Shown here piece by piece: positions 1,327-63,860 of a stretch of DNA of 64,000 nt. Position 1 is the first letter of the stretch; every line of letters starts with the position of its first letter. Both the position numbers and the translations under genes were made by a program. The notes beneath the pieces are model-generated. The model saw only the letters and a program-made list of their open reading frames with translations, did no database searches and had not been told where the DNA came from. This DNA is from Chiloscyllium plagiosum (lineage: Eukaryota): assembly GCF_004010195.1 (NCBI RefSeq), contig NC_057751.1:19430535-19494534 (forward strand), written 5' to 3'.

Positions 1327-1329
1327 AAG

Positions 1330-6227: not shown

Positions 6228-6427
6228 ATTTGGAGATGCTGGTATTGGACTGAGGTGGACAAAGTTTAAAAAACACACAATAGTGGGTTATAGTCCAACA
6301 GGTTTATTCGGAAGTACTAGCTTTCGGACGTCGCAACCTCCTGATGAAGGAGCAGTGCTCCGAAAGCTAGTACTTTCAAATAAACCTGTTGGACTATAAC
6401 CTGGTGTTGTGTGGTTTTTTAAACTAG
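6228..6427. mobile_element. Fold-back PLE-terminal element (family A) with hammerhead core
   Basis: 11-bp direct repeats GTATGAACTTG at 6217-6227 and 6428-6438; inverted arms; CTGATGA-A-GGAGC-AGT-GCTCC-GAAAGCTA at 6341-6369. Confidence 0.8.
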
Positions 6428-6761
6428 GTATGAACTTGCAAGTTTATCAGGAATAACCTCAGTTCCATGAGTGAAATGGACAATCTGGTCATTACCTGTA
6501 TTGTGGGATGCTGTGGACTTGCTGGGTTCCAATAATAGATTAAGAAATTTGCCACAGGTTTTAATTCCAAACTTTGTTCAAGCATGTCATCTAAGAACTA
6601 TCTTGACCTGGCAAGGTTTCTGAACATAAAGGTTTCAAGCCTTGACTTGGCCTTTTAGCTAATGAAATGGTGTATCTATATAGCTGAGATTGGGGCACTG
6701 TTTGTGCCATCTTTCTTTGTTTTGCTGATGTCTGTTGGCATTCTTTTGTGATGACACTCAC

Positions 6762-7550
6762 TTAGAGCCATAGAGATGTACAACACAGAAACAGACCCTT
6801 CGGTCCAACTCCTCCATGCTGACCAGATATCCCAACCTAATCTTGTCCCATTTGCCAGCACCTGGCCTGTATCCTTCCAACACCTTCCTATCATATACCC
6901 ATCCAGACGTCTTTTTAAATATTGTAATTGTACCAGCCTTCACTTCCTCTGGCAGCTCATTCCATACACGTACCACCCTCTGCGTGGAAAAGGTTGCCCC
7001 TTGGGTCCCTTTTTATATCTTTCCCCTCGCACCTTAAACCTGTGCCCTCTAGTTCTGGACTGCACCATCCCAGGGAAATGACTTCATCTATTTACCCTAT
7101 CTATGCCCCTCATGATTTTATAAGCCTCGATAAGGTCACCCCTCAGCCTCCGACACTCCAGGGAAAACAGCCCCAGCCTATTTAACTTCTCCCTATAGCT
7201 CACACCCTTCAACCCTGGCAACACCCTTGTAAATCATTTCTGAACCCTTTTAGGTTTCACAACATCCTTCTGATAGGAAGGAAACCAGAATTGTATGCAA
7301 TATTCTAAAAGTGGCCTAACCAATGTCCTGTACAGCTGCAACATGATCTCCAACTCCTGTACTCCATGCTCTGACCAATAAAGGAAAGCATACCAAACAC
7401 TGCCTTCACTATCCTGTCTACCTGCGACTCCACTTTCAAGGAGCTATAAACCTGCACTCCAAGGTCTCTTTGTTCAGCAACACTCCCTAGGATCTTACCA
7501 TTAAGTGTATAAGTCCTGCTAAGATTTGCTTTCCAAAAATGCAGCACCTT
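6762..7550 (-). mobile_element. CR1 LINE (HER1-like) 3' fragment
   Basis: Minus-strand peptides LHFWKANLSRTYTLNGKILGSVAEQRDLGVQV and VRVWNELPEEV, plus a CR1 3' tail. Confidence 0.85.
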
Positions 7551-8451
7551 TTTAAGAGTTTATTTTGTCTGTTTTGTTTTGAACAAGTTGTAAGGCAGAG
7601 ATATGAAGCTGTCTCTAAGAAAGTGAACCATTTGTGAGGCCTTGGGATTACTTGTAGTTGAAACAATGCAAGCAGACTAGGTGTGGCCAGCTCTCTCAGA
7701 ATAGGCTTTCTAGTTTTTGCTTAGTTTTTAAGCAGAAGCCTTTGGGTGTCTCAAGAGTTGGAAGCTTCAATGAATGTCTCCTAGCTGCTATTCTCAGAAT
7801 TTTCTCTTGGTTTTCTTCCCTTCCTGGATCAGAATTTGCCATTCTGTGGAGGGCTGTGTTAATGGGATGTTACTATAATGGGAAAGTAAATTAGCAATTA
7901 CTGTGTCTATTATTCGGTTAAGTTTTCCAAAGTATTCTAAAATCCTCTTTCTTTGGTTTGTATTCTAACTATAGTATTTAAATTGTGTTTTGCTTAACAT
8001 CGAATAGTTTGACCAGTTGCATCAGATCTGGAACACAACATTTCACATCTACCTTGAAAATAAGAAAACGTTAGGGTTTAGGGTACTTTCAAAATATTTT
8101 GAGGGGGTCTGGTCTGGTCCAAAACACTACTTTTGTCAAACCCAAAGAGTTTCTCCCACATTGAAATTGATTTTTGTAGTTTGTAAAAGAGAACAGTTTG
8201 GAGAAGGGGAATTTTTTTTAAAAAAAGTTTGCTGGTGACTTTTATCAAATAATTTAGATGGTGCAAATCTGAAACGAAACCAGAAAGAGTTTGGAAAAGC
8301 ACTGCCTGATTTGCTGAGTATCTATGGAGAGAAAAAAGTTAATTATTTCAGTTGCATTGCCCTTTATCAGAATCAACAACGTTCCCAAATAAGCTACTCT
8401 ATAAATTGAATGAATGCCTCTTTATTTTTTCTGTGAGAAGTTTTCTTTAGA

Positions 8452-8764
8452 ATAGATTACTTTGTGTGGAAACAGGCCCTTCAGCCCAATGAGTCCACAC
8501 TGACCCGCCGAAGCGCAACCCATCCAGACCCTTTCCCCTACATTTTCCCCTTCACCTAACACTATGGACAATTTTGGAATGGCCAATTCACCTAACCTGC
8601 ACATTTTTGGACTGTGGGAGGAAACTGGAGCATCCGGAGGAAACCCACGCAGATATGGGGAGAATGTGTAAACTCCACACAGACAGTCGCCTGAGGCAGG
8701 AATTGAACCCGGATCTCTGGCGCTGTGAGGTAGCAGTGCTAACCGCTGTGCCACCGTGCCGCCC
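8452..8764 (-). mobile_element. HE1-type V-SINE (tRNA-derived)
   Basis: Head GGCGGCACGGTGGCACAGCGGTTAGCACTGCT, V-domain TGTGTGGAGTTT...GGGTTTCCTCCGG and CR1-derived tail GGCCTGTTTCCACAC. Confidence 0.85.
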
Positions 8765-8804
8765 ATGTGTGTAATCTTAACATTGTAGGCAGAAGCTGCA
8801 GTAA

Positions 8805-9030: not shown

Positions 9031-9859
9031 AAATAAAAAGAACCGCAATTGGCGAGTGTGAAGTTAATGCACAAGAAGTCCTGAAACTGCTGGTCATAGG
9101 CTTTGCACTTTCCTTTTTTTTAAAAAAAAGCTGTGTAGGCAGGGTTCCTGAATATGGAGGATAGTACTGAAGCATCGTGACCTCCGAGGTTTACAAAGTG
9201 TAGTCATAGTTACCAGAAAGCCAGTTATATTTTGATTTGTTAGGCTACTGGATTTTCTTTTGCTCACTGCAAGATGCTGATGATGCCTCTATACGAGAGG
9301 ATCAAGACAATGCATTTAACTGTGTGGAATAGATTGTGTATTTTTTAAATTCTGTTTTGGCCAGTGCCTTTCTTACTTTCCAGCTTTGTCGATACCATAT
9401 TCTAGCCATCTGTGATTGAGTGTACAAAATGACTGGAGAGAGCCATACCTTGCAGGACTAAGAGGTCTCTTGTGCCTCAGTTAAGTGTGGGAACTCACTG
9501 GGAAATTCTATCTGTGAACCGGTGCCTTGCCCCTCCATGCTACAGAATGTCAAGACAACCCAGCCACTCCCTCAGTCACATGTTACCCCAGGTACAATGG
9601 TAGGATGAGATCATCCTCAGAGATGATGTAAATGCCCTAATCCTGGGGGATTGTTATGCAGATGATTTCCTGATTCAGTGATTCCCCAAGACAATGTAGG
9701 TGTGATATCTCCTAGCTTCGGGGGATGGCTATGAAAACATTTCTGAATGGAAGAGATTGAATGAGAGTTTGATTTGATAATAGTATGGGGAGTAGTAGCA
9801 AATGACTGGGGGTCATTCGCATTCCTCCATGAATGTCGTCCCCACCCACTTCCAGAATG

Positions 9860-10390
9860 TTTGTGTATATGTGCGTACGTGTACACAAGTTTGTGGGGTG
9901 CATTTGTACTTGCAGAATTACATTTTACTTTGCTCAAAAACTGCATGAATCAATATAAGATTCTGTAAATCCGTTTTTTTAGATTAGACTCAATCTGACC
10001 ATTGTGGCACAGACAGCCTCACAGGGAGTTAACACCTTCAGTACCTTATCTGGGCCGACATGACACCAATTGTTAAAGTGCACTTGAGAATGTAACTTCT
10101 AAAAGTTTTGCGATTTACATATGAAAGAACTGAAATCAACATGGTCATTCGAAAAGATGAGAGACTTAAACAATCCGGGTCTTTTTCAATATATAAATTC
10201 AGTTACATCACATTGTAAACTTTTGCTATAAATTCCGTGTCTTACAATCTTATTCTCCACAATCACTTGATGAAGGAGCAGTGCTCTGAAAGCTAGTGCT
10301 TCCAAATAAACCTGTTGAACTATAACCTGGTATGTGATTTTTTAAAAAAAAACTTTGTACACCCCAATCCAACACCGGCGTCTCCAAATC
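9860..10390 (+). mobile_element. PLE family A 3' UTR/terminal repeat with decayed hammerhead
   Basis: Ends in the same terminal sequence as the 6228 and 16998 elements (tgatgaaggagcagtgctctgaaagctag...caacaccggcgtctccaaatc). Confidence 0.7.
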
Positions 10391-10476
10391 CTGAGGAACC
10401 CCAGCAGTGATGTCCTGAGGCTGAGGTGATTTGGTCTCAAACAGCCGAAGGGCCTGTTTCCATACTGTAAAGTAAT

Positions 10477-10659
10477 ACAGACAGAGTGCCTGAAGGATGG
10501 AGAGAATACAGGCACTCTGCCTGTATTCCTGATGAAGGGCTTTTGCCGGAAATGTCGATTTTCCTGCTCCTCGGATGCTGCCTGAACTGCTGTGTTTTTC
10601 CAGCGCCACTCTCTACTCCAGAATCTGGTTTCCAGCATCTGCAGTCATTGTTTTTACCT
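10477..10659 (+). mobile_element. PLE family B terminal element inserted into an HE1/CR1-type tail
   Basis: 13-bp direct repeat ACTGTAAAGTAAT at 10464-10476 and 10662-10674; CTGATGA at 10529; short 5' inverted segment; the (CTAAT)n tail resumes after the insertion. Confidence 0.75.
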
Positions 10660-10794
10660 ACACTGTAAAGTAATCTAATCTAATCTAATCTAAACCACTT
10701 CTTTCTTCCTTTATGCTAGTTATGATTCCAGCCAGTGGAAAGTTTCTCCCCTGATTCCCATTTATTCCATTTTATTAGAGCTCCTTGATGCCTA

Positions 10795-11160
10795 CTTTTG
10801 TTACCTGTTGGTTAACCAAGTTGTGTCATAAGGTCTAATGTTCACACTTCAACCTAAATGGATCTCTGCTTCAACAAGCTATTCAAAGATAATTTTCACA
10901 CCAAGTGGAATAGATGAACGCATGCTGGCTTGGCTTAGTCATCAAATTGCATAGTAAACTGAATCCCTGATTCACTAAACAGGGAGGAAGATGATTTGTT
11001 GTGGAGGGATGATTCTGAAAACTTTCTGACGACCCTGAAGCTAATCCAGAGAGGATCCTTATGGTCCTGCTCATGCCGTAGCAAAAGTGACTCCGAATCA
11101 ATTCGATGAGTTTTTTTTTCAGCAGATGCTGAAGACAATGAATTTCGCAGGCTTTAAAGC
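10795..11160 (+). pseudogene. Pogo/Tigger-like DDE transposase C-terminal remnant
   Basis: 10861-10917 reads DLCFNKLFKDNFHTKWNR* (cf. pogo QPLDVxxNKPFKD...W). About 10966-11019 reads PDSLNREEDDLLWRDDSE (cf. SNALDGTEDDxLW), and an acidic tail ends near 11155. Confidence 0.55.
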
Positions 11161-15869: not shown

Positions 15870-16405
15870 AATTCATATGGGCATCGCTGGCTTGGCCAGC
15901 TTTTAACCATCTGTAATTGTCCAGAGGGCACTGAGGACTCCAGACCCACAGTAATGTGGTTGAATCCTATGTAGACAGGAGAAAGTGAGGTCTGCAGATG
16001 CTGGAGATCAGAGCTGAAAATGTGTTGCTGGAAAAGCGCAGCAGGTCAGGCAGCATCCAAGGAACAGGAGAAGGGCTGTTTGAGAAGGAGAAGAAGGGCT
16101 CATGCCCGAAACGTCGATTCTCCTGTTCCTTGGATGCTGCCTGACCTGCTGTGCTTTTCCAGCAACACATTTTCAGTTCCTATGTAGACAGACCAGGTAA
16201 GGATGGCAGTTTCTTTTCCGAAAGGACATTTCTGAACCAGGTGTGTTTTTATAACGAATGCCATTGTTAGATTCTTGATGTGAGATGTTTTTATTAAATT
16301 CAAATTTCTCCACCTGCCATGAGGATTTGAACCCAGGTCCCCAGAATATTACCTGGGTCTCTGGATGAACAGCCTCATGATGATACCATTCATCCATTGC
16401 CTTCT
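15870..16405 (-). mobile_element. Meta-like SINE interrupted by a PLE fold-back element
   Basis: Reverse complement of the 60365-60725 SINE on both sides of 15979-16177. Confidence 0.65.
15979..16177. mobile_element. Fold-back PLE family B element
   Basis: 14-bp direct repeat TCCTATGTAGACAG at 15965-15978 and 16178-16191; inverted arms 16014-16072 and 16118-16176; GGGC-TCAT-GCCC-GAAACGTC. Confidence 0.8.
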
Positions 16406-16997: not shown

Positions 16998-17283
16998 ATT
17001 TGGAGATGCCGGTGTTGGACTGGGGTGTGCAAAGTTAAAAATCACACAACACCAGGTTATAGTCCAACAGGTTTAATTGGAAGCACACTAGCTTTCGGAG
17101 CGACGCTCCTTCATCAGGTGAGAGTGGAGGGCTCGATCGTAACACAGAATTTATACCAAATTTTTGCTATAAATTCTGTGTTACGATCGAGCCCTCCACT
17201 CTCACCTGATGAAGGAGCGTCGCTCCGAAAGCTAGTGTGCTTCCAATTAAACCTGTTGGACTATAACCTGGTGTTGTGATTTG
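16998..17283. mobile_element. Young palindromic PLE family A element with two opposed hammerheads
   Basis: 12-bp direct repeat TATCCTATTATG at 16986-16997 and 17284-17295; 116-bp inverted arms 17045-17160 and 17163-17278 with one visible mismatch. Confidence 0.85.
17203..17237 (+). ncRNA. Minimal type I hammerhead ribozyme (family A)
   Basis: CAC-CTGATGA-A-GGAGC-GTC-GCTCC-GAAA-GC-TA-GTG: stem I CAC/GTG, stem II GGAGC/GCTCC, palindromic AGCT helix III, predicted cleavage after A17234. A mirror copy lies on the minus strand at about 17086-17120. Confidence 0.7.
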
Positions 17284-20417: not shown

Positions 20418-20579
20418 AGTCGCGAGTGTGGAGCTGGAAAAGCGCATCAGAGGAACAGGGCAAAAGCCCTTTTGCCCGAAACGTTGATTCTCCTGTTCCT
20501 CGGATGCTTTCTGGCCTGCTGTGCTTTTCCAGCACCACACTCGCGACTCCAATCTCCAGCATCTGCAGTCCTCACTTTC
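20418..20579. mobile_element. Fold-back PLE family B element
   Basis: Inverted arms agtcgcgagtgtgg...ccacactcgcgact; ttttgcccgaaacgtt motif; family B 3' end ctccagcatctgcagtcctcactttc. Confidence 0.7.
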
Positions 20580-20594
20580 GTGATGTTGATAATT

Positions 20595-23466: not shown

Positions 23467-24850
23467 GCAAAAGTGAGGTCTGCAGATGTTGGAGATCAGA
23501 GTCAAGAGTGGTGCTGGAAAAGCACAGCAGGTCAGGCAGCATCCAAGGAGCAGGAGAATTGACGTTTCGGGCAAAAGCCCTTCATCAGGAATAAGGCTGG
23601 TAGTCTTGGAATCTGCCATTACAACCCATTATTAGCCATTAATTGTCCACTAATAGCTATTCATTCTCCCAAGCTGATCATTATCCACACCTTTGACTGT
23701 CGAGCTGTCCTTCTCTCTCATTGGGCTCCATCTCCACCTATCATTTACTCCTTTCCTTCTTCCCCCACTCTGTCTTCTTCATAAAAGAAAAAATTCCTAT
23801 CTACCATCAATGCTGAGGAAGAGTCACTGAACCTGAAAAGTTAACTCTAATTTCTCTCTACAGATGCTACCAGACCTGCTGAGCCTTTCCAGCAATTTCT
23901 GCTTTTTCTTTGTGGTTTAAGTATTGTTGCCAATGATGTGAACATCAGAATGACCCAGCATTGGGAGGCACTTCTACAGCTGCTGAGCGCAAGATATTGG
24001 GAGAGCAGTACTGTGGAGGGATGATGCATCCATAACGAAGTATGAATAGGTTTTACAGGAATAATACTTCCTGGACGGTCTTTATGGAAAGTGGATACGA
24101 GTGGGGAGGGAAAAATATCTCTGGTGATGGGGTCGGTTTGCAGGTGGCAGAAATGGCGGAGGATGATGCAATGTATCCAGAGGTTGGTGGGGTGGAAGGT
24201 GAGGGTTGGGGGTTCTGTCCTTGTTGCGGTTAGAGGGGTAGGGTTTAAGGGCGAGGTGCAAGAAGTGGATGAGAATGCGCTGGAGGGCATCATTGACCAT
24301 GTGGGAGGGGAAATTGTGGTCTTTAAAGAAGGAGGACATCTGTTCAACCTCCTGGTGGGAGCACGAGGTGGCGCCAATGCAGTGATCAATGTAGCGGAGG
24401 AAAAGGTGGGGAAATGGTGCCAGTGTAACTATGGAAGATAGACTGTTCCACGTAGTTGACAAAAAGGCAGGCATAGTTGGGGCCCATGCGGGTGCCCATA
24501 GCTATCCCATTGGTCTAGAGGAAGTGGGAGGATTTGAAGGAGAAATGGAGGGTGAGGACCAGTTCAGCCAAATGAATGAGTGTGTCAATGGAAGGGTACT
24601 GGTGGGGACATTAGGAGAGGAAGAAACGGAGGGCTTGGAGGCCCTGGTCATGGCGGATGGAGGTGTATAGGGACTGGATGTCCATGGTGAAGAATGAGGC
24701 ATTGGGGCCCAGGGAAAATAGAAGTCTTGGAGGTGGTGGAGGGTGTGTGTGGTGTCCTGAATGTATGGTGGGAGTTTCTGGACCGGGGGGATAGGACAGT
24801 ATCAAGGTATGTGGGGCAGGAGCAGGCTGAGACGATGGGTCGGCTGGGGT
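23467..24850 (-). mobile_element. Penelope-like element: RT remnant plus family B terminal repeat, with a nested family C terminus at about 23615-23910 (+)
   Basis: Minus-strand FFTMDIQSLYTSIRHDQGLQAL, GIAMGTRMGP and LFLRYIDHCIG are PLE-type RT motifs. The flanking LINE sequence is duplicated imperfectly (gctctcctag / gctcccttag). Confidence 0.8.
23558..23592 (-). ncRNA. Minimal hammerhead ribozyme (family B), intact core
   Basis: Minus strand reads ATTC-CTGATGA-A-GGGC-TTTT-GCCC-GAAA-CG-TC-AAT; stem I pairing is weak in this copy. Confidence 0.6.
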
Positions 24851-27099
24851 AGCTCCCTTAGCCAAGCTGTTCCAATACAGTTACAACACTGGCATCTACC
24901 CCACAATGTGGAAAATTGCCTAAGTATGTCATATACATAAAAAGCAGAACAAATCTAACCTGGCCAATTGCTGTCCCATTGGTCTACTCTCGATCATCAG
25001 TAAAGTGATGGGAGGGGTCATCAACAGTATTATCAAGCAGCACCTGCTCAGTGACACCCACTTTGGATTCTGCCAGGGCCACTCAGCTCCTGACCTCATT
25101 ACAGCCTTGGTTCAAGCATGGACACAAGAGCTGAATTCCAGAGGGGAGGGGAGAGGGACAGCCCTTGACATCAAGGCTGCATTCAACTGAGTGTAGCATC
25201 ACTGAGCTTGAACAAAACTGGAATCAGTGGCTACTGGGGGCAAACTCTTTGGTGGTTAGTCATACCTGCCACATTGGAAGATGGTTGTCATTGTTGGTCA
25301 GTCATCTCAGCTCCAGGAGATCTCTGCAGCAGTTCCTCAGGGTAGTGTTCCAGGCCCAACCATCTTCAGCTGCTTCATCAATGACCTTCCCCTCCATCAT
25401 ATGGTCAGAAGTGGGGATGTCCACCAATGATTGCCTGATGTTTAGCACTATTCAGATAGACTCTTCAGATACTGAAGCAGTTCGTGTCCAAATGCAACAA
25501 GATCTGGACAATATCCAGGCTTGGGCTGATAAGTGGCAACTAACATTCTCACCACATACATACCAGGCTCTGACCATCATCAATAAGAGACAATCTAACC
25601 ACTGGCCCTTGCCATTCAATGGTACTACCATCACTGAGACCCCACTGTCAACATTTTGCCGGTTATTATTGATCAGAAACTGAACCGGACTCAAGTAAAT
25701 AGTGGCTACGAGAGCAGGTCAGAGGCTAGGAATACTGCAGCGAAGAACTCCCTTCCTGACCCCCCCCCCCCCCCCCAGCCAAGCCCCAGTCAGGAGTGTG
25801 ATGGAATACCACCCACTTGCCTGGATGGGTGCAGCTCCAACAACACTCAAGAAGCTTGACACCATCCAGGGACAATGCAGCCCGTTTGATTGGCATTGCA
25901 TCCACAAGCATCCACTCTCTCCTCCACCAATGCTCATCAGCAGCAGTGTGTACTACTATTTACAAGATACACTGCAGAAATTAACCAAAGATGCTCAGAC
26001 AGCACCTTCCAAACCCACATTGCTTCCATCTGGAAGGACAAGGGCAGCAGATACATGGGAACACTACCTGCTGGAAGTTCCCCTCCAAGCCACTTGCTTT
26101 CTCGACTTCTTAGAAATATATAGCTGTTTCTTTACTGTCGCTAGGTAAGAACCCTGGAATTCTCTCCCTAATAGCATTGTGTGTCAACCCAAAGCAGGTG
26201 GACTGCAGCAGTTCAAGAAGGCAGTTCACCACCACCTTAAGGGGGCGACTAGGGACAGGCAATAAATGCCGGTCAGCCAGCAATGCCCACATCCCATTTT
26301 AAAAAAAAGCTACTGTTGGAGGGTCGATAGACTATTCTGTCGTCATTTCTTCAATCTACCTAAACTTGTTTTAAACTTTGTTCTCTTGAAGTAAGGTAAT
26401 CTTTCACTACTGTACAGCATTAAGGATATTTTGAAATTACGGAGCTACCCCACCACCTTTTCCTAGCTTTGTCTTTTGGAAGTGCTGAACATCTTTTAAT
26501 ATTCAGGTCTTGGCCTTGGTCACCTTGTATCGATATTTTTAATAATGGCTGTCGGCTCAGAAATAATTATGTATCTGGACTAACGGTTTATTCATTTTTC
26601 ATGAATGTTGCATACATTCAGATGCAGAGTCTTGAGCCCTTATCTTTTTAGCAATGTTGTAATCTCTGGCCTCCTGTTACACTCCTTAGTTTGTACTCCT
26701 GTCCCTTCCTACCACACTTGGTTCATTACCCAAGTCCACCCTACTCTATGCTATTTGTGTCCCTTTGATTTATCATATCTCCTCTCACATGATCCCATCT
26801 CTTCTCTCCATGTAAGTGCTCGGGAATGACCATCTCCAACATGAGAGAATCTAACTATTGCCTCTTGACATTCAATGGTATCGCCATCACTGAATCCCCC
26901 ACTGTCAACATCCTGGAGTTTATCGTTGAGTGGTAACTGAAATAGGCCAGTTATACAAATGAACATTAGATAAATACTGCAGCTACAAGAGCAGGTCAGA
27001 AACTTGGAATTCTGTGATGTGTAACGGTCCAACCTTTACTCATCAGCCAACTTGCTTACTCCAGGTATAAATCTAGTAAAACTCCTCTGAATCACCACC

Positions 27100-29230
27100 T
27101 ATAAGACATAGGAGCAGAAATTAGGCCATTCAGCCCATCGAGTCTGCTCTGCCATTCAATCATGGCTGATAAGTTTCTCAACCCCATTCTCCCATTTTCT
27201 CCCCATAACCCTTGATCCCCTTGATACTCAAGAACCTATCTATCTCAGTCTTAAATATATTCAATGACCTGGTCTCCACAGTCCTCTGTGGCAGTGAATT
27301 CCATAGATTCCCCACTCTCTGGCTGAAGAGGTTTCTCCTTATCTCCATTCTAAGGCTTTACTCTAAGGCTATACTTTCAGGTCCTCGTCTCTCCTACCAT
27401 TGGAAGCATCTTCCCAACATCCACTCTGTATCAGTGAGTTTTCAGAAGATGTGTAGCTCAGCTTGAGGTTCTGAATGTAGGTTTGCTCGCTGAGCTGGAA
27501 TGTTCATTTTCTGACATTTCGTCACCATATTAGGTAACATCATCAGTGAGTCTCCAGTTGAAGCACTGGTGGCATGGCCTGCTTTCTATATGTGTTTCCT
27601 TGGGTTGGTGATGTCATTTTTCTGTGGTGTCATTTCCTGTTCTTTTTCTCAGGGGGTGGTAAATGGGATCCAAGTCAATGTGTTTTGATAGAGTTCCAGT
27701 TGGAATGCCATGCTTCTAGGAATTCTCTTGCGTGTCTCTGTTTGGCTTGTCCTAAGATGGATGTCTTGACCCAATCAAAGTGGTGTCCTTCCTCATCCAT
27801 ATATAAGGATACTAGTGAGAGTGGGTCATGTGTTTTTGTGGCTAGTTGATGTTCATGTATCCTGATGGCTAGTTTTCTGCCTGTTTGTCCAATGTAGTGT
27901 TTGTTACAGTCCTTGCAAGGTATTTTGTAAATGACATTAGTTTTGCTTGTCTGTATTTGGTCTTTCAAGTTCATTTGCTGCTGTTTTTATTGTGTTGGTG
28001 TGCCAGAGTACTCAAACCTCTTGGCATCATGGTAGCCCACCAAGACACTAAAACAGCAGCTAATGAACTTGAAAGACCCGATACAGACAACAAGCAAAAC
28101 TAATGTCATTTACAAAATACCTTGCAAGAACTGAAACAAACACTACATTGGACAAACAGGCAGAAAACTAGCCACCAGGATACATGAACATCAACTAGCC
28201 ACAAAAAGATATGACCCACTCTCACTAGTATCCTAACATACAGATGAGGAAGGACACCACTTCGGCTGGGACAAGACATCCATCCTAGGACAAGCCAAAC
28301 TGAGACATGCACGAGAATTCCTTGAAGCATGACATTCCAACCGGAACTCTATCAACAAACACATTGACTTGGATCCCATTTACCACCCCCTGAGAAAAAG
28401 AACAGGAAATGGCAAGGAAACCTAAACACATAAATAGAAAGCGGGCCATGCCACCAGTGCTTCATCCAGAGGCTCACTGATGTTACCTAGTATGGTGACG
28501 AAACTAACCTTCCAGCTCAGTGAGCAAACCTACATCCAGAGTATTCTGTATATTTCAATTAAATACCCCCCTCATCCTTATAAATTTTATCAAGTATAGA
28601 CCCAGAGTCCTCAAACATTCCTTATGTTAAACACCAAGATATATAGCACAGAAAAAGGCCCTTTGGCCCATTTTAGTTCATGCTTTTCAGAAACAACCAC
28701 CTAACTATTCTAATCCTATTTCCCAGCACTTGGCCCATAGTCTTGTGTGCCTTGACATCGCAACTGCGCATCTAAATACCATTAAAATGTGATGAAGGTT
28801 TCTACCTCTGCCACTATTACAGGCAGTGAATTCCAGATTTCCCCCCCCCCACCATCGTTTGGGTGAAATGATTTTTTCCCTCTCATCGCCCTCTAAACCT
28901 CCTGCCCCAAATATTCAATCCATTCCCCCTTGTCATTGTTCTCTCCACTAAGGGGAAAAATTTCTTCCTGTCAATGTCCCTCTTTTATACAATTCAGTCA
29001 TGTTCCACCTCAATCTCCTCTGCTGTAAGGAAATCAACCCCAGTTTGTCCAATTTCTGTTCATGACTGAAACACTGCAGTCCAGCCCAGTAAATCTCCTC
29101 TGCCCCCTCTCCAGTATTATCATATCTCTCCTATAATGTGCATTCCAGAACAGCACATCATTAAGTAAGGAGACCAAAACTCCCCACAGTATTCAAGATA
29201 GTGTCGCCAATGCCACATGTAACTCCCACT
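27100..29230 (-). mobile_element. CR1 3' fragments flanking and following the inverted PLE
   Basis: CR1 tails at about 27100 and 28635; the CR1 sequence resumes after 28540. Confidence 0.6.
27465..28540. mobile_element. Inverted-duplicated Penelope GIY-YIG endonuclease/3' terminus (family D)
   Basis: ORF 27675-27974 (-) NVIYKIPCKDCNKHYIGQTGRKLAIRIHEH...REFLEAWH, with a mirror copy on + at about 28060-28400. Hammerhead-like CTGATGA-T-GTTACC-TAATAT-GGTGAC-GAAATGTC on the minus strand at 27513-27546. Confidence 0.85.
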
Positions 29231-29888: not shown

Positions 29889-30015
29889 CCATTCCTGATG
29901 AAGGGCTAATGCCCGAAACATCAATTCTCCTGCTCCTCGGATGCTGCCTGACCTGCTGTGCTTTTCCAGCACCATACTCTCGACTCTGATCTCCAGCATC
30001 TGCGGTTCTCACTCT
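29889..30015 (+). mobile_element. 127-bp PLE family B element starting at the hammerhead
   Basis: 18-bp direct repeat CTCTTAAC(A/G)TGGAGTCTG at 29871-29888 and 30016-30033; CTGATGA-A-GGGC-TAAT-GCCC-GAAACATC from 29895. Confidence 0.8.
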
Positions 30016-31579: not shown

Positions 31580-32780
31580 CGTAGAAGGCAGAGGATAGTT
31601 GTGGTGGGATGTTTTTCTGGCTGACTCGACGTCTGTGACCAGTGGTGGTCAACAAGGATCAGTGCTGGGACCTCTCTTTGTAATATATATTAATGATTTG
31701 GATGAAAATATAGTTGGTCTGATGAGTAAGTTTGCAGAGGGCATGACATTTAGTGGACAAAAAAAAACAACTGTCAATACTAGAAATCAGAAACAAAAAG
31801 TCGCTGGAAAAACTCAGCAGGTCTGGCAGAGTCTGTTAAAAAGCAGTTAATGTTTCTGGTCCACTCGCCCTTCAGAGTAGGTCAGTCCTGAAGAAGGGTC
31901 ACCAGACTCAAAATGTTAACTCTGAAAATTGGTGGAGTCGTTATACAAGGACACAGCAGGATATAGATCAGTTGGAAAGTTGGGTGAAGAAATGGTAGAT
32001 GGACTTTAATCCAGACAAGTGTGAGGTGATGTATTTTGAGAGGTCAAATGCAAGAGGAAGGTATACAGTAAATGGCAGGACCCTTGACAACATTGATATA
32101 CAGAGGGATCTTGGAGGGAGCAAGTGCCTAGCTCCCTGAAAATGGCAACACAAGTGGATAAGGTGGTAAGGAAGGTGTATGGCATGCTTGCCTTCATTGG
32201 TCAGGGCATTGAATATAAAAGTTGGTAAGTCATGTTGCAGTTATATAAGACTTTAGGTCACATTTGGAATATTGTGTGCCGTTCTGGTCACCACATTATA
32301 AGGAGATGGCTTTGGAGAGGGTGCAAAAGAGGTTTACCAGGATGTAGCCTGGATTGGAGCTTATTAGCTATAAGGAGCGGTTGGGCAAACCTGGAATGTT
32401 TTGCTGCAGCATTGGATGCTGAGAGGTGACCTGATATAAAATTGAGGCATGGATAGTTGAGAGCACGTTTTAACAACATTTCTGCCTTGAGAAATACTAG
32501 GTGGCATAGGTTTAAGGTGAAAAGTGGAAAGTTTGAAGGAGATGTGCGAGGCAGGTTTTGTTTTCTAACACCAGGGTGGTAGTTGCCTGGAACATGCTGG
32601 CAGTGAAGGTGGTGAAAGCAGATAAGACAGCAATGTTTTAAGAGGCATTTAGATAGGCAGGGAATAGAGGGATACGGACCATGTGCAGGCAGATGGGATT
32701 ACTTTAGAATAGCATCATAGTCAGTGTGGACATGGTGGGCCAAAGGGCCTGTTCCTATGCTGTTCTTCCATGTTCTGTAA
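31580..32780 (+). mobile_element. CR1 LINE RT/3' fragment with a nested fold-back PLE family C element (about 31775-31925)
   Basis: [25 protein letters not shown] and MLQLYKTL; nested CTGAAGA-A-GGGTC-ACCA-GACTC-AAAATGTT at 31888. Confidence 0.8.
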
Positions 32781-47593: not shown

Positions 47594-48049
47594 TAATGGG
47601 AAATGGGCTTGACTGCTTTTTTTTTTTTTTGAAGCAGTTATGACAACCAAACAGGAGTAGCTCCAAGGAAATTCTTGGCATGCTCTTTTTCAAGTTTTAA
47701 ATGGAAAGTGAATTCTATGTGATAAGTGTATTAAGTACCATGATGGCGAGTATTGCTGAGAAAAGACACATTCTTTCAAAACTCTCTGAATTGCACCCAG
47801 CAGGACATTTGCAAGAGTACCAGTGTAATGGGTAACAACATTTTAAGAACATGAGCTAAATAAAAGGAGAGTGCTGATTGTTTGGCAAGTGGGCTGCAAT
47901 AGAGAAGTCATTAATTAGGCAGTGACTAACTGTGACTGCCAAATTTTGTTTAAACTTAAACCAGGCAAGTGGACTCGAGTCAACTGGATCTGAAGGAGTG
48001 AACCAGAGAATGCGGCTGTCATCTGTTTCGAAAGTTGAAGTAGACTTTT

Positions 48050-49141
48050 TATGAAGTTGTGGATTTGTTCGCCGAGCCGGTGTGTTTTTCTGCAAATGTT
48101 TTGTCGTCTCGCTAGGTGACATCATCGGTATGCCTTTGTCATCATTAGACATCCACAACTGGAAGAAACCCATCATCACATCCTCCCCGGAATAAAGTTC
48201 ACTAAAAAAGAGGCAAACAACAGCAGACTACCCTTCCTGGAGGTATTAGTGGAACATGCACCTACCGGGGAACTCCAGACCGGTGTGTACAGAAAGAACA
48301 CCCATACTGAACTATAACAGCAATTGCCCCAGTCCCCACAAGCAGAGCTGCATTAGGATGTTCTTTAAATAGGCAAAATCACACTGCAGCCACCCAGAAC
48401 TCCAGAAGGCAGAAGAGGAACCTCTATTCAAAGGATTTAAACGAAACAATTACCCCAAGAGCACTATCCTTCAGTACCTACAGGGCAAACCCAAAGAGGA
48501 AATTACCACACTCCCAGACACAATAGTGACCATACCATACATCAAAGACCTGTCGGAGATAATTACCTGACTACTAAGTCTCCTGGGAATCTTAGTGACC
48601 CACAAACCAGTGAACGCCTTCCATCAGCTACTCCCAAAGGTTAAAGACCCAATACCCACGTCCAACAGGATGAACGTTCTCTCCAAGATACCCTGCAAAG
48701 ACTGTGAAAAACACTTGAAGGACAAACTGGAAGAAAACTGACCATACAAGTGCATGAACATCAGCTCACCACTGCCAGAAATGACCAGTACACTCTCTCA
48801 TTTCCAATCACACGGGCAGCGTAAAACACACATTCAACTGGGAAGATGTAACTATCCAAGCATAGGTAAAACGGAGACGCCAGAGAATTCCTTGAAGCCT
48901 GTCACTCCAACTGGAACTCAATCAATAAACACGTTGAACTGGACCCCGCATATAAACCACTCCGATACAGAACCAGCAGTACCAACAAATCCAGGTGGGA
49001 CAGAGCACCACCACCTTATCAAAGCAGCACTGACTAGGTTACCCAGCGAGGTGACGAAACGTCTGCAGAAAAACACTCTGGCTCGGCAAATGAATCCACG
49101 ACTTCATCCACAACTCAAGCTACAAATCTTCTCAAGAACTC
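48050..49141 (+). mobile_element. 5'-truncated Penelope element (RT thumb + GIY-YIG) with an inverted terminal copy at its 5' end
   Basis: IKFTKKEANNSRLPFLEV, VYRKNTHT, TIPYIKDLSE, KIPCKDC and GQTGRKL..VHEH; 48050-48133 is inverted relative to 49027-49107; hammerhead-like motif at 49030-49063. Confidence 0.85.
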
Positions 49142-49896
49142 TAAAGACTATGCGCATGTTCTTGCTGTCTGTAAAGAACAGAGCCCTGAGTATTTGCATA
49201 TATAGTTTCCAGTATGTCCAAATGCACCACACTGCAAGTCCAACTATCATAAATACATTGTCTGAGTAATTCTTAAAAGTACGCACTAAAGAGCATTTTA
49301 CATATTTTGTCTGGTTGCACATCTAATGTTGGTCATTGTTTTGAGCTTCTCAAACGTGGAGTAGCTAGGTACAGTAAGTACTTGAACCATTGCAAATGGC
49401 TAAAGAACAGGTTATTTGACATTCTTTGCCAGTTTTTGGAATGTACTTCCTGCTTACCTTATCATACTGGTGCTGAAAGTTACATACCATGTTGCTATCT
49501 TTTTGGTTTAAGAGCACCATTACTGATGCTGCATGCTAGCAGCATGTTGTTTCAACTATATCGTAGGCAGACTGCCTTTTTGGCTTGTCGGGGGCATCTT
49601 GTTAACAGTAAACTTTTGTGTTGCTACATTTCCAGAGTAAACCTGAAAAGTGTCCAGTATAACTCATTACCCTCGAAGAGCAAGATATCTCAAAAACTTA
49701 AACAACAGGTGGAGGTAGCTGTTTCATGTTCCTATTATGCAGCAGCAACATGAGCGGTGTTCACCACTAATTGTTGTCAAGCTAAAAAGACATTCTGTCT
49801 ATCACATTAACACGGTATTTAAATTCCGTGCCAGTGTGATGCTAGGTAAGAAGTTTGTACGTCCCAAAAAACTGGCTGACTGTATAAATCAACATG

Positions 49897-50475
49897 GCTG
49901 ACGAAGGACTTTTGCCCGAAACGTTGATTTTCCTGCTCCTCAGATGCTGCCTGACCTGCTGCAGTCCACCTGCTGTGGGTTGACCCACAATGCCATTAGG
50001 GAGGAAATTCTAGGAATTTGACCTAGCAACATTGAAGGAACGGTGATATTTCCAAGTCAGGGCGGTGAGTGGCTTGGAGGGGAACTTGGTGGTGTTCCCA
50101 TGTATCTGCTGTACTTGTCCTTCTAGATGGAAGTGGTGTGGGTTAGGAAGGTGGTGTCTGAGCGTCTTGCAAATAGTAGTACACGCTGCTGCTACTAAGT
50201 GTTGGTGGTGGAGGGAATGGATGTTTGTGGATGTGGTGCCAATCAAGTGGGCTGCTTTGTCCTAGATAGTGTCAAGCTTCTTGAGTGTTGTTGGAGCTGT
50301 ACCCATCAAGGCAAGTGGGGAGTATTCCATCACACTCCTGACTTGGGCCTTGCAGATGGTGTACAGGCTTTGGGGAGTCAGGAGGTGAGTTACTCACCAC
50401 AGTATTCCTAGCTTCTGACTTGCTCTTGTAGCCACTGTGTTTATGTGGCGAGTCCAGTTGAGTTTCTGGTCAATG
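49897..50475. mobile_element. PLE family B fragment (+, 49897-49960) abutting a minus-strand CR1-group LINE fragment
   Basis: CTGACGA-A-GGAC-TTTT-GCCC-GAAACGTT, followed by the reverse complement of about 25680-26210. Confidence 0.7.
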
Positions 50476-54358: not shown

Positions 54359-54566
54359 GCTGGGGTACCAACTGTCACCTTACCAACTCAACCTGTTCTG
54401 AACACCAACAGTGAAAGGATGAAGCAGGAAGATGCAAATGTGTTACAGCAGCTGTCTCTGCTGAATGGCTTAATCAAGACTATCCAGATGTACCGCAGTG
54501 CTATTCAGCAAATGAATGAAGCTCCTGATCAGGAGCAGCAGCAGCAGCTGCCACAGTGTTACCAAT
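54359..54566 (+). CDS. STAT6: STAT6-like coding exon 4: AGVPTVTLPTQPVLNTNSERMKQEDANVLQQLSLLNGLIKTIQMYRSAIQQMNEAPDQEQQQQLPQCYQ
   Basis: ttttgtag| acceptor and |gtgagt donor; 208 nt open frame, phase 0-1; linker followed by a heptad-like helix as expected for the coiled-coil start. Sequence similarity is low, so support is mainly structural. Confidence 0.7.
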
Positions 54567-55962
54567 GTGAGTACGACACAGATTTTGCAAAGTTAAAAAT
54601 ACCAATAAGTCTAATCTGAACTCTATATTAAAAGCTCAGTGAATTTATTACCCTGCTAACTCCTCAGATGAGTGAGTCAAACTCAATTTGGCAGCATTAA
54701 AGGATCAATTATTTACATCTTAGGTTAGGATATTTCAGATCTAGAAAAATTCTTAAAAAAAACTTCTGTATGCCAGTTAATCAGAATTCTTTATTATAAA
54801 TCCAGTTTATTTACATGTCGCATTCCTTATTGGAACTTCAATTAAAAATGAATGATGTGTGAAACGGGTCTGGAAAGAGTAAAGATTAATGTTTCTGGTG
54901 GAGAATTCTAATCACAAGATCATTGATGGAGAAGGATGTTACATGCAATGTAATGAGTTAATCCATAACGATCCTACAGTTCTCCTTTGCAGAATCCCTA
55001 TGGTTTTAAAGAGATTCCTTTTTTTTTGTCTCTGTTAATCTCTTCAGTAATTCAAGCCACCTGTTCACCACTCTAAGAATTCCGAATCTCTAACTTTTAT
55101 ATCTAACAGATTTTAGCAGTATAGTTCAATATCTACTGGCTTTTTTTGTTTTGCATCATTGGACATGCCAAGCATTTCCAGATATATCCAAGCATATCCA
55201 TTTAAGATATTTTAGTATCTCTCTTTCAGTGCTATTCATATTTTTCTGTCTCATGAGTGCACCACCGACCTGTTGTGCGTCTGCCCTCCCTCTCTTGTAC
55301 ATCTTTCTCTTGTGCATTTGCACCTCCCATGTGTGAACATTGTTTTCTATACCTCAAGTGCAGTCCCTTTTTATCTTGCCTGTGCTTCACCTCACCCCCA
55401 ACCCCATGCACATGCAGTTCAGTCTTGCTCTCTCATGCATGTCGCCTTGTGTGCAAACCTTTAATCAAATATCGTTTTCTTCTGCATACTTCTTTCTCTG
55501 CTCAGTCCCCGCGTTCCATGCAGTTACCTATTTTCCCTCTTCCACCTCCAAGATGTGCATATGTCTCTGTTTCTTTTGTTTCCCTTGTGTGTTTCCTTTT
55601 CTCAAGATGTGGAGGTGCTGGTGTCGGACTGGGGTGGACAGTTGTTTTTTATCCTTTTCTTAAGCAAGTTGCCTTCATATGCACAAACTTATAATCTTCT
55701 ATTCCCTCATTCTCCCCCGATGCATTTTCTCTTGTACGAATATTTCTTATCTCAACCTTTTTCACTTCACCATCCGATACACGTTTTTCTGTGTTTCACA
55801 GCAGGGGCAGAAGAATCTCAGTGGGCAGAATTATACCTGAGTGTTTTGCGTTGACTGGCTACAAAAGGAAATCAAATTAGATGAATGCACAAAAAGAAAA
55901 AATGTTTGTGCATGGTGATGTCTTCCTAGATCTCTGGATCATTGCATAATTGTTTATTTTAG

Positions 55963-60360: not shown

Positions 60361-60364
60361 TTTA

Positions 60365-60725: not shown

Positions 60726-61708
60726 AAATAAAAGTTACTCTGGGTTGAAGTATGGATGGAGATGAAGCATGTTTGAGCTGGAAAATAGTGGTTTTTAGCT
60801 AAGAATTAGATTATTGTCATTCGATTTAGTTATGCACTGAGATTGTAAAATGATAGCAAAGTGGTTGGAAAGAGGATAGTTGTACAGATCATGACAGTCT
60901 TTGTCTTGCAAGTGCTGAGCTGGAGAAAGTTAATGATTGGGGAGCAGAAAAGAGGAGAAAATGGTACACATTATTTCAAAACAAAAAGCTCTCCAAGTTA
61001 AAATGGTTGTGGATCACTGTTTCATGTCTCCTTTTGATTCAAGGTGCAATCTTCCAGAACTTTAGGAATTCTAGATTACAGTTTAATATTACACACTATG
61101 ATGCAGAAATATTTAGAAAATTGTACAGAAAATTTACAGAAGGTTTATGAACTAAATTGTCACAGATGGTTGAGTCAGTTAACTAAATTGGATACAAATC
61201 TTCCATTCAAACAGCCTTGCAAACTGAAAGGGATTGGGAGAAGGGATGAAGCCTCAAACTAATTTGTCGCACGCTTGAATGTGTGCCTCCCAATAATCGC
61301 ATACCTCATGACTTTTTTTTTAAATTTTAGCTTTGCTTTGCAGTTCACCAAGAGTTTCATGTGGTCTGCTGTATGACCAGTACATATGCAGAAAAATCTG
61401 TCTAGCCAACATGCCAACAAAATTAGAAATTTTGAATGGTGGCTCCCCTTTACCTTTTTTAAGCTTTGCCTGACACTAAATATTGAATAGAGGCTATTGT
61501 GTTTCTGCAGATTGCATTACATTTGAGCATGAACAGAGAAGCTGGTCTCAGTCTTATTGCTCAGCTCTAACAGACCTATGGAGAGAACAAAATACACTGG
61601 GGTACACAAGCTGTTTGAGTGTTGCTCCCTGGGACCATTTTAATAGGGTAAACATGCCTTAAGGCTAACAATGAATCTTTTTGGGTTTTTTGAATGGCTT
61701 TTTAACAG

Positions 61709-61857
61709 AAGAGAAATTACAGCATCTTGGAAGCGGTGAGATCTCTGGAACAGGTCCAGGGCCTTGTGCTGAATATGATTCAGGACTGGAAACGACGACT
61801 ACAGCTGTCAGGAAATGGTGCCTACTTTGAGGACAACCTGGGGTCACTTCAGGAATG
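61709..61857 (+). CDS. STAT6: STAT6-like coding exon 6: KRNYSILEAVRSLEQVQGLVLNMIQDWKRRLQLSGNGAYFEDNLGSLQE(W)
   Basis: tttaacag| acceptor and TG|gtgagg donor. The coiled-coil motif WKRRxQLxGNGAxFE matches STAT6 ([26 protein letters not shown]) better than STAT5 ([24 protein letters not shown]). Not in the ORF track in this frame. Confidence 0.9.
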
Positions 61858-63669
61858 GTGAGGAACCAGATTCAGTCCATTTGGTGCACAGTATTTTACA
61901 AATAAATCGGCACGTAGGCGCAAATGTCAAATTGAGACACACTGAATTGCAGTTGATCACTGGAAATTCCTACTTATTCATAATTAATTATAGAAATTTT
62001 GTTTGAATGATGGATTATTAGATTCTTTCATGACGTCAGTGTTGCAGAAATACAAATAAGTTAAGTGAAATTTGACACACGCATTGCCAAATCAATTTCT
62101 GTTAAATGATGGTCTTGTAGTTGATGGCTTATTTTGAATAAAATATGGAAAAAAAATCTATGGACATTATTTCAAATTTTGTGCCTCGACTGCTACCCTA
62201 CCAAAGGGCTACCCAGCAAGAAACAATTTCAACCCTGCTCAAATTTAGTGATGTATTTATGTATTGAGTATCTTGCCATATTAAAAATTGTATGTGGTCC
62301 TCATCACTGGTGTTAAATTTTATTGAAATTATTCAAGTTATTTTATTGTATGAAAGTAAATGTGGCCTAGTCTAATTGTTATGAATTCATCACCATTTTC
62401 CTATTTCTTTCTGGCTGCTCTCAGTTGCTTCAAGTGGGGGGAGAAAATACAAAATCCATTCTAAACCTGTTCTAATATCCTTGTTTTAAACTCCCACTTG
62501 CCTCCAGCAAAGGTTGATGATCTTGTCTCTTTGACTTGTGGCTGTCATTGAATTTGCAAATCTCCAGCTCTTCCCTTTTCCGAGGGAATTCCAATCAGCT
62601 TGAGATCAGGGGTTTGAGCAGTTAGTGCTATTGCTGGACAACAAGGTAACCAATGGGGTAGCACCACTGAAAACAGACATAATGGCATGGCGCTGGCGGT
62701 TTAAACTCCTGGTGTATCACTGTTGCATGCATTGAGTCAGAGTGGAAAATGGAAAACTGCTAAAGTCACAACATTGATACCAGACCAGCTGTAGGACTGC
62801 AAGTACTGTACTGACTTGCAGGCTACCTGATCGACTAGGATATTGGTGCTAGAGACTTCAAGTGAGCAGGACTCGATCGGCAGAAATTTCCATGCCTCAA
62901 AATCTTTATTTGTTGAGTCTCTGTACTTTAATATATTAGAGAATTTATTTTACTATCAGAATGCAACCTTTATTACTGTTTGTGAATTTGCAAGTTCTAT
63001 AAGTCTTTTATATGTTCACCATGCCAATTAATTCAGGAGTTGGTGATACAGAGTTATTTGCAGTCAGATGTTTTAGCATTTCAAATACCAGTGGGATTCC
63101 TTGCTGAACTATAGAAAGAGTGCTCCTCTCTCTGAGCAGGTAGCATTTCAACTTTCATTATGGTTCTTACAAGGTCTTGAACTAGAACAAATAGTTCTGG
63201 ACTTCTGTATAGTTCTTGTTTTGGTTATGGTTTTTAAGTTTATCATGGTGACACTTCACAGAGAAATACTCATTTTCTGGGCTTGCCTTGCTGTTCACAT
63301 AAACTTAACCAAAACAAGCCTGAATATATAGCTTTGATAAGTTCCAGTTTTTGAACAGAACTGGATTCTTAAAATTAATTGTTTTAGTTTCGGCCAAAGT
63401 GGGTCTTCTTTAACGTATTGCAAATGAGTTGCAAGCAGAGCTATTTATTATAAACCTGCGCCTGAATCTTCTCAATTTGTCATGTATAAAAGACAGTGTT
63501 GTAAATTGCAGTTTTTACCTGATTTAGCTCGCTTCAAATTAGGTTTAGTAACTTTTATCAAATATGCTTCATTTCCTCAGTGAATATTTTCAGGATGTAG
63601 AATTAACATCTTTTTTCAATTTCTATTCCCCCCCACCGAATTTTACTATCTCCTGTCCTGAATTGTTGG

Positions 63670-63860
63670 ATAGTACTGAAGAAACTCAGCAGGTCTGACC
63701 ATCTCTATGGAGAGAAAAAGAGTCAGTGTTTCAAGTTCAGAAACCTTTTGTCAGAACTAGGGTCGATGAAAGGTCAGTGGACTCGAAACATTAACTTGGT
63801 GTTTCTCTCAAAAGGTACTGGAGACCTGCTGAGTTTTCCCTCCAACACTTGTTGCATTTG
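63670..63860. mobile_element. Degraded fold-back PLE family C element
   Basis: aaactcagcaggtct ... agacctgctgagttt inverted arms; gatga-a-aggtc-agtg-gactc-gaaacatt motif. Confidence 0.6.

What the first reader, a model, noticed from the sequence alone, without database searches (positions are those of the whole stretch)
6228..63860. Four sequence-distinct hammerhead-ribozyme families in short mobile elements across the locus
Seen: the hammerhead core CTGAnGA...GAAA recurs with different but complementary stem II sequences. Family A has GGAGC/GCTCC (6341, 17206, mirror about 17100, decayed about 10266). Family B has GGGC/GCCC with loops TTTT, TAAT or TCAT (10529, about 16095, 23561-23588 minus, 29895, about 49898). 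Family C has GGGTC/GAC(C/T)C (31888, about 23813, about 63765). Family D has GTTACC/GGTGAC (27513-27546 minus, about 28477, 49030). Well-preserved copies have one extra nucleotide after A9 and a tiny palindromic helix III (AGCT or ACGT). Families B and D are physically linked to PLE RT or GIY-YIG coding remnants. Established: Penelope-like elements carry minimal type I hammerheads, and hammerheads with a short palindromic helix III are thought to cleave as dimers. Inference: more than a dozen cores in 64 kb suggests a very high genome-wide copy number of ribozyme-bearing non-autonomous retroelements. I cannot tell whether these shark families have been described.
Basis: partly seen in the sequence, partly recalled or inferred. 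Interest (0 to 1): 0.75.

Follow-up and report, generated by a model that had tools for sequence, protein, structure and literature searches.

The report
Shark Penelope-element hammerhead remnants
The recurring motifs are small hammerhead (self-cutting RNA) sequences in broken end-pieces of Penelope-like jumping genes in a shark genome, a kind already described; nearly all copies here are damaged, and the one new detail is that RNAs from one family end in a poly(A) tail just behind the motif.

Summary
The motifs are real (7 strict hits; 0-1 in 12 shuffles) but of a known kind: minimal type I hammerheads in the terminal repeats (pLTRs) of Penelope-like elements (PLEs). They are not separate non-autonomous families. 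They are 5'-truncated PLE ends, mostly laid down as head-to-head pairs with a one-sided 31-47-nt tail and target-site duplications, as described for PLEs.

D is contiguous with Poseidon-type endonuclease/RT sequence. B shares one insertion block with a Neptune-type RT. C is homologous to B, so there are three lineages, not four. A resembles pLTRs of Neptune-type PLEs found elsewhere.

Only 2 of 18 tabulated sites keep every hammerhead feature, and those two are predicted to be buried in their own 116-bp hairpin.

Public DNA contigs show very high abundance. In one single-cell RNA sample, 1,148 of 5,769 laid reads end in poly(A) 12-15 nt after family A's AATAAA, about 30 nt past the predicted cut site. 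Cleavage itself is untested.

The parts
6228..6427 (.). Family A fold-back insertion: complete end on the minus arm, tail-less plus arm with core at 6341 (helix I damaged); 11-bp target-site duplication at 6217-6227 / 6428-6438
9870..10392 (+). Long family A pLTR copy (5' boundary approximate); core at 10267 with C3 changed; predicted cut after 10295
10305..10340 (+). AATAAA (10305-10310), poly(A) addition site (10322-10325) and GU-rich downstream tract of family A
   Evidence: loose ends (458 + 690 reads, from copies across the genome)
10477..10661 (+). Family B end piece, core at 10529 (closing pair of helix II broken), 13-bp target-site duplication
15979..16177 (.). Family B fold-back insertion, CUGA box lost at the junction, 14-bp target-site duplication
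16998..17283 (.). Young family A fold-back insertion, arms 99% complementary over 116 nt; the only two fully intact hammerheads (17117-, 17206+); 12-bp target-site duplication; 47-nt one-sided tail
20418..20580 (.). Family B fold-back remnant without the 5' core box
23470..23612 (-). Family B 3' end, core at 23588 (helix I first pair broken); left end of a block that interrupts a LINE RT fragment
23612..23920 (+). Decayed family C pLTR, core at 23813, nested in opposite orientation inside the block
24075..24854 (-). Broken Neptune-type PLE reverse transcriptase (60-80% identical to Chiloscyllium protein P0002 in its best segments), same strand as the B end, right end of the block
27436..28540 (.). 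Family D1 head-to-head insertion: GIY-YIG endonuclease (27678-27986-, 28036-28410+) plus pLTR on each arm; cores at 27546- and about 28477+ (core box deleted)
29889..30015 (+). Family B end piece, core at 29895 (palindrome and helix I broken), 18-bp target-site duplication with one mismatch
31775..31922 (.). Decayed family C inverted pair, core at 31888 with G12 lost
48049..49141 (+). Family D2: 5'-truncated Poseidon-type PLE with inverted tail-less pLTR (48049-48138, decayed core 48128-), broken RT-thumb and GIY-YIG (48132-49007) and 3' pLTR with core at 49030 (G8 lost)
49893..49961 (+). Family B fragment, core at 49898, helix II mismatch
55606..55640 (-). Family A tail fragment without core
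63669..63864 (.). Decayed family C inverted pair (cores 63754-, 63763+)

Best explanation
These are the hammerhead-bearing 3' ends (pLTRs) of endonuclease-positive Penelope-like retrotransposons of the Poseidon and Neptune types, likely inserted by target-primed reverse transcription as 5'-truncated, often head-to-head copies and now mostly decayed. Shown: minimal type I hammerhead layout; contiguity of D with GIY-YIG/RT sequence; fold-back pairs with a one-sided 31-47-nt tail; target-site duplications; damage in 16 of 18 sites; poly(A) addition just behind family A's motif in one RNA sample. Inferred: B belongs to the Neptune-type RT in the same insertion block; A belongs to a Neptune-type parent; in an active full-length element the motif would cut the element's RNA as a dimer through the AGCU/ACGU palindrome or with help from the element's protein; the dispersed stubs are passive cargo that rarely if ever cut.
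For: D1 arms encode GIY-YIG 83-88% identical to carpet-shark PLE proteins, and D2 matches RT thumb plus endonuclease directly upstream of its motif; no Cys linker in 0 of 28 such relatives that show the endonuclease motif, i.e. Penelope/Poseidon type, against 64 of 70 for relatives of the RT at 24075-24854, i.e. Neptune/Nematis type (criterion from PMC8557442). The LINE RT reading frame stops at 23470 and resumes at about 24850 with a few codons repeated, so B end and RT sit in one block. Six fold-back inserts have one arm longer by 31-47 nt, the published 'tail'. Five of 15 boundary pairs give a direct repeat scoring >=11 against 3 of 298 random pairs. In metagenome contigs, 21 of 120 loci with the same core pattern have PLE protein matches, and their 11 distinct motifs all show the palindrome, H17 not G and the first two helix I pairs, none of which the pattern demanded. 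A-like motifs sit downstream of a Cys-linker endonuclease (L042) or beside an inverted Neptune-type RT (L014). Extra base after A9, G10.1-C11.1 and palindromic helix III are the published marks of PLE minimal hammerheads.
Against: No coding sequence is attached to any family A copy in the window, and its parent is inferred from 72-75-nt matches at 75-78% in contigs picked by the core pattern itself; L040 looks chimeric. The B-RT block has lost its endonuclease and holds an inverted C piece, so the link is by shared boundaries and strand only. Ten of 15 boundary pairs gave no strong duplication. Several B copies start within 5 nt of the core, which a short dedicated template could also produce. 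Cleavage was not tested.
Confidence: 0.87

Rival explanations
1. Families A and B are independent short non-autonomous elements (SINE-like or retrozyme-like) that are transcribed from their own short copies and mobilised in trans by PLE proteins.
For: Isolated 130-bp B inserts with their own duplications start 4-5 nt before the core; A has no ORF in the window; trans-mobilisation by pLTRs is published (PMC3846280); a 2026 preprint derives animal retrozymes from PLE pLTRs and reports them in one chondrichthyan.
Against: No tandem units hold a hammerhead; helix I is 2-4 bp, not the 6-bp canonical form of retrozymes; 5' ends vary from 5 to about 400 nt upstream of the core; DNA contigs show B copies continuing upstream of 10525 and 10509; poly(A)-ended A RNAs stop about 65 nt short of the DNA end and so could not template a complete copy (inference).
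Confidence: 0.08
2. Some family A ends have been kept by the host as a combined poly(A) signal and conditional ribozyme that can cut the tail off a transcript.
For: Poly(A) tails join 12-15 nt after AATAAA in 1,148 reads, first mates are strand-biased 1681 to 273 at the core, and 828 of 913 reads covering 10267 carry the intact C3; the predicted cut lies 10 nt before AATAAA; a hammerhead between stop codon and poly(A) signal lowers expression in mammalian Clec2 genes (review PMC6765202).
Against: One sample only (the second run laid 0 reads); the number of source loci is unknown; the tailed reads run through the cut site uncut; published minimal hammerheads cut poorly in vitro, one needs protein, and no cut ends were seen in lizard RNA-seq; use of a transposon's poly(A) signal does not need selection.
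Confidence: 0.04
3. The motifs are chance matches or unrelated hairpins inside repeats.
For: The relaxed scan is only 2-3 times above shuffles (15 against 3-7); Rfam gives no hammerhead hit.
Against: Strict scan 7 against 0-1; helix II pairs hold in 12-13 of 14 copies per position with different pair types between families; the same layout recurs beside PLE genes in other contigs.
Confidence: 0.01

Closest known systems
Minimal hammerheads (min-HHR) in pLTRs of metazoan Penelope-like elements (Cervera and De la Pena 2014, PMC4209133)
   Same: Type I layout without loop 3, unpaired base between 9 and 10.1, G10.1-C11.1, palindromic 15.2-16.2, several families per genome, mostly single motifs from truncated PLEs, some pairs on opposite strands; reported in Poseidon and Neptune elements of fishes, and about 4,000 and 9,000 motifs in coelacanth and Xenopus.
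   Different: No shark is named in the main-text parts read or in the one supplement file searched (file 1 not searched). Helix I is very short here (2-4 bp). Abundance in this genome looks higher but was not counted.
Insertion structure of EN+ PLEs (Arkhipova et al. 2013, PMC3846280; Craig et al. 2021, PMC8557442)
   Same: 5' truncation, adjacent inverted 5'-truncated copy, 30-40-bp tail on one side, 8-10-bp target-site duplications.
   Different: Inserts here are much shorter (130-290 bp for most), duplications 11-18 bp, tail up to 47 nt.
PAc, Poseidon element of Anolis (Frangieh et al. 2024, PMC11167929)
   Same: Hammerhead in the pLTR overlapping the ORF start; family D keeps an open frame starting at the core in 3 of 3 copies translated, and the full-length element L004 has its long frame running through the core.
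   Different: PAc was assayed (protein-assisted cleavage, not needed for insertion); nothing here was. The ORF-start reading for D was not confirmed against a full-length shark protein.
Non-LTR retrozymes (Cervera and De la Pena 2020, PMC7229834; Li et al. 2026 preprint 10.64898/2026.07.22.740005)
   Same: Type I hammerhead, no coding capacity in the short copies, relation to PLE pLTRs.
   Different: Retrozymes are tandem repeats, typically with canonical hammerheads; here there are no tandem units and the motif is minimal.

Membership tests
PLE minimal type I hammerhead | Conserved CUGANGA and GAA boxes around helix II, above chance | tested here: met
   7 strict hits against 0-1 in 12 shuffles; 9 of 18 sites keep all core bases
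PLE minimal type I hammerhead | Unpaired base between A9 and 10.1; G10.1-C11.1 | tested here: met
   Extra base in all cores; G-C in 9 of 14 non-redundant copies, paired in 12 of 14
PLE minimal type I hammerhead | Palindromic helix III without loop, NUH triplet | tested here: met
   Exact AGCT or ACGT in 6 of 14 non-redundant copies, 15.2-16.2 paired in 9 of 14; 7 of the 8 others are ATGT or ACAT, as CpG decay would give
PLE minimal type I hammerhead | Short helix I with covariation between families | tested here: inconclusive
   Pairs hold in 7, 11 and 7 of 14 copies at the three positions, with different pair types between families; 11, 11 and 9 of 11 in PLE-flanked outside loci
PLE minimal type I hammerhead | Self-cleavage as dimer or with protein help | not testable with these tools
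   No pile of read ends at the site, but the library would likely lose a 30-nt 3' product
EN+ Penelope-like element (Poseidon type, family D) | RT followed by C-terminal GIY-YIG without Cys linker, then pLTR | tested here: met
EN+ Penelope-like element (Neptune type, families B/C) | RT whose full-length relatives carry the Cys linker; pLTR on the same insertion | tested here: inconclusive
   Linker in 64 of 70 relatives; B end and RT share one block and strand, but the endonuclease is missing; Neptune and Nematis were not told apart by a tree with named references
EN+ Penelope-like element (family A) | pLTR downstream of a PLE ORF | tested here: inconclusive
   No ORF in the window; A-like motifs follow PLE endonucleases in L042 and L040 and neighbour an RT in L014
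EN+ Penelope-like element | Inverted 5'-truncated copy, one-sided tail, target-site duplication | tested here: met
   Six fold-back inserts with 31-47-nt asymmetry; 5 of 15 boundary pairs with duplications of 11-18 bp
Non-LTR retrozyme | Tandem repeats each holding a hammerhead | tested here: not met
   5 tandem-repeat rows in the window, none at a hammerhead
Non-LTR retrozyme | Canonical 6-bp helix I with loop 1-loop 2 contact | tested here: not met
   Helix I 0-4 bp in all 18 sites
Non-LTR retrozyme | Abundant circular RNAs | not testable with these tools
   Only a poly(A) single-cell library was available as raw reads

The most novel reading that the evidence does not exclude
Family A ends are a mobile 'poly(A) signal plus latent ribozyme' cassette spread over this shark genome in very large numbers: copies that end host transcripts give them a new 3' end that can be cut off 30 nt before the tail when two such RNAs pair through the AGCU palindrome or when PLE protein is present, making PLE activity a switch for mRNA de-tailing.
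Probability: 0.05. Interest if true: 0.75.

Novelty: new member of a known kind. Interest (0 to 1): 0.25.

Why it matters
As it stands it extends a known RNA motif to sharks at high density (14 listed intervals covering 8.9% of this window) that Rfam misses, and it warns that motif counts overstate active ribozymes. The used poly(A) site in family A is a small testable lead: it shows these stubs can end RNAs, and it places a predicted cut site between the RNA body and its tail. If cleavage were shown there, a transposon-borne ribozyme would control the stability of host RNAs.

Tried and rejected
Whole-genome census: no genome held. Rfam: only hairpin-driven miRNA-type matches below their cut-offs, no hammerhead. 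Pfam on 101 of the window's frames: only weak GIY-YIG, RVT_1 and zf-RVT matches plus three chance-level ones, no host gene; ESM Atlas on the frame 54359-54616 gave no usable hit. Run search: no RNA holder listed among indexed runs, which says nothing on expression. Run X22 laid 0 reads (no test). No pile of read starts or ends at the predicted cut site, uninformative for this library type. Summed contig depth (6.0 and 9.6 million at the A and B cores against 13.8 in the unique flank) was not taken as a copy number, as the tool warns. MAFFT misaligned family A by one column, so pairs were counted on anchored motifs instead; no R-scape-type test was run. Cofolding of minimal motifs gave helix II swapped dimers, not the active dimer, and the 4-bp palindrome duplex is weak (-2.5 and -1.7 kcal/mol), so folding neither supports nor excludes dimer cleavage. 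The match at 1403- lies in an L1-type RT frame, has no other copy and no helix II: rejected. No shark DNA was found in the metagenome scan. Lunse et al. (dimer cleavage) is not held.
Full report
Observation. Requiring helix II leaves 7 hits in 64 kb, against 0 in 11 shuffles and 1 in one shuffle; allowing one core mismatch gives 15 against 3-7. One of the 7 (31888) is a mis-pairing with a downstream GAAA. Self-BLAST groups the sites into families and shows that B and C share their downstream region at 67-69% identity, while the two D subfamilies are 61% alike. An anchored table of 18 sites shows 9 with all invariant core bases and 2 (17206+, 17117-) that also keep helix II, the palindrome, the NUH triplet and helix I. 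Three rows (16095, 20464, 28477) were anchored slightly off; the raw sequence shows they lack the first core box. Among 14 non-redundant copies the four inner helix II pairs hold in 12, 13, 13 and 13, with different pair types between families; helix I holds in 7, 11 and 7. Rfam 15 reports no hammerhead at E<=10.

Anatomy. Most sites belong to head-to-head pairs: 17045-17278 (99%), 27679-28361 (92%), 16011-16179, 6265-6422, 48051-49107, 20418-20548, plus decayed C pairs at 31775-31922 and 63669-63864. In the six better-kept pairs one arm runs 31-47 nt further than the other. Direct repeats of 11-18 bp flank 5 of 15 boundary pairs tested, a score reached by 3 of 298 random pairs. This is the published PLE insertion: 5' truncation, an adjacent inverted truncated copy, a 30-40-bp tail at one end and a short duplication (PMC8557442 passages and introduction; PMC3846280 passages).

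Parents. Family D: both arms at 27.4-28.5 kb encode a GIY-YIG domain 83-88% identical to carpet-shark proteins P0005/P0006, and 48132-49007 matches RT thumb plus endonuclease directly before the 49030 motif. None of 28 relatives showing the endonuclease motif has the Cys linker, which places D with Penelope/Poseidon. Family B/C: the RT remnant at 24075-24854 matches Chiloscyllium P0002, and 64 of 70 long relatives with the endonuclease motif (of 91 long proteins examined) carry the Cys linker of Neptune/Nematis. A LINE RT frame stops at 23470 and resumes near 24850 with a few codons repeated, so the B end at 23588 and the RT lie in one block on one strand, with an inverted C piece inside. Family A has no ORF in the window. 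A metagenome scan with the shared core pattern returned 120 loci, none from shark. Twenty-one have PLE protein matches, and their 11 distinct motifs all show the palindrome, H17 not G and two helix I pairs, against 57, 60, 39 and 46 of 72 in the rest; many of the 21 come from one or two related assemblies, so they are not independent. L042 has a Cys-linker endonuclease upstream of an A-like motif, L014 has the same pLTR inverted beside an RT, and L040 has an endonuclease end followed by an A-like motif and tail. These matches are short and include the pattern itself, so A's parent is likely, not shown.

Abundance and RNA. I laid four runs on 9400-10900 at 82% likeness. DNA run X1 put 86,952 contigs on the stretch, which also holds other repeats; summed depth peaks at the A and B cores and falls to 13.8 in the unique flank. 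This shows very high abundance but is no copy number. In single-cell poly(A) run X21, 5,769 reads were laid; 458 and 690 continue as poly(A) behind 10322 and 10325, 12-15 nt after AATAAA at 10305-10310 and ahead of a GU-rich tract. Three of four A copies in the window have no A run there and the fourth has one about 18 nt further on, so priming on a genomic A run is unlikely; only the top loose ends were shown (1,851 were not). First mates at the A core lie 1681 to 273 on the minus strand, fitting sense RNA read from its tail; B is unbiased (434 to 575) and shows no tail among the listed ends. The tailed reads cross the predicted cut after 10295. No pile of ends was reported, but a 30-nt 3' product would likely be lost, so cleavage is untested. 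X22, the same sample, laid no reads. The number of loci behind the tailed reads is unknown. In the outside loci AATAAA follows the motif within 45 nt in 9 of 33 well-paired distinct motifs (1 of 33 upstream) and in 3 of 11 PLE-flanked ones.

Folding. The 16998-17283 insert folds into one long duplex (-240 kcal/mol, z = -32), and the probability of the closing helix II pair drops from 0.90 in the isolated motif to 0.00 in context. The only intact motifs are therefore predicted to be occluded when the insert is transcribed through. B4, B5 and D1 keep helix II in context but have lost helix I.

Mechanism. Shown: structure, coding links for D, damage, poly(A) use. Inferred from the literature: an RT-endonuclease protein cuts the target, starts reverse transcription at one of two sites near the pLTR end (which explains the tail; PMC11167929, parts 1-2 of 4) and usually stops early. 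The hammerhead would cut the element's RNA as a dimer or with protein help; activity was low for S. mansoni and D. virilis motifs (PMC4209133, parts 1-2 of 4), protein-dependent and dispensable for insertion in PAc, and no cut ends were seen in lizard RNA-seq. Family D keeps an open frame from the core onward in 3 of 3 copies translated, as in PAc, but I could not confirm it against a full-length shark protein.

Literature and novelty. The motif class, its marks and its genome-wide spread were described in 2014. Seven paper searches gave no paper on these shark families or on a PLE poly(A) site behind the hammerhead. Term searches inside PMC7229834, PMC2377424 and one supplement file of PMC4209133 were also blank; PMC6765202 was seen as passages. 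The 2026 preprint (parts 1-3 of 5) reports retrozymes and PLEs in one chondrichthyan, and its closed supplements may list related families. Repbase and Dfam could not be searched, and Lunse et al. was seen only as a citation. Earlier notes of this scan describe the same pattern on many other pieces of this genome; two word searches for polyadenylation found none holding all words. The name HE1/HER1 for the repeat tail at 10444-10476 is recalled, not from a call.

Verdict. Real, correctly spotted, and a new member of a known kind. The 'four non-autonomous families' reading is replaced by truncated ends of three PLE lineages. Interest 0.25, most of it from the used poly(A) site in family A.

Noticed in passing
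window 10268 (loose ends): In three runs (302 reads, 625 and 109 contigs) sequence joined just before the A core ends in the same nine letters, eight of which are complementary to the palindrome and cut-site region. Either a recurring fold-back junction or an A subfamily with a self-blocking leader.
   Followed up: no
window 10444-10476 and 10662-10695: The B insert at 10477-10661 sits in the tail of another repeat (recalled as HE1/HER1), whose RNAs also end in poly(A) (399 reads).
   Followed up: partly
window 10478-10524: A short extra hairpin (about 16-bp arms) of non-B sequence lies inside the duplication-bounded insert, in front of the B core.
   Followed up: no
P0007, P0019, P0042, P0044: Database isoforms of shark host genes (MAP3K7, CUEDC2, WBP2-like and one unnamed) end in family D-type endonuclease sequence: predicted exonisation of PLE pieces or annotation artefacts.
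   Followed up: no
L004:260-3406: A full-length Neptune-type PLE frame (1,049 codons) between direct repeats in a metagenome contig, with a Met codon inside the hammerhead core.
   Followed up: partly
window 412-1406 (minus): Well-kept 3' part of an L1/Tx1-type RT with zf-RVT match.
   Followed up: no
window 54359-54616 (+): An 86-codon open frame with a Gln run and a CxxC that may hold a host exon; no Pfam or Atlas hit. No host gene was identified in the window.
   Followed up: partly
window 9553-9850: Another multi-copy repeat directly upstream of the long A copy (depth), not identified.
   Followed up: no
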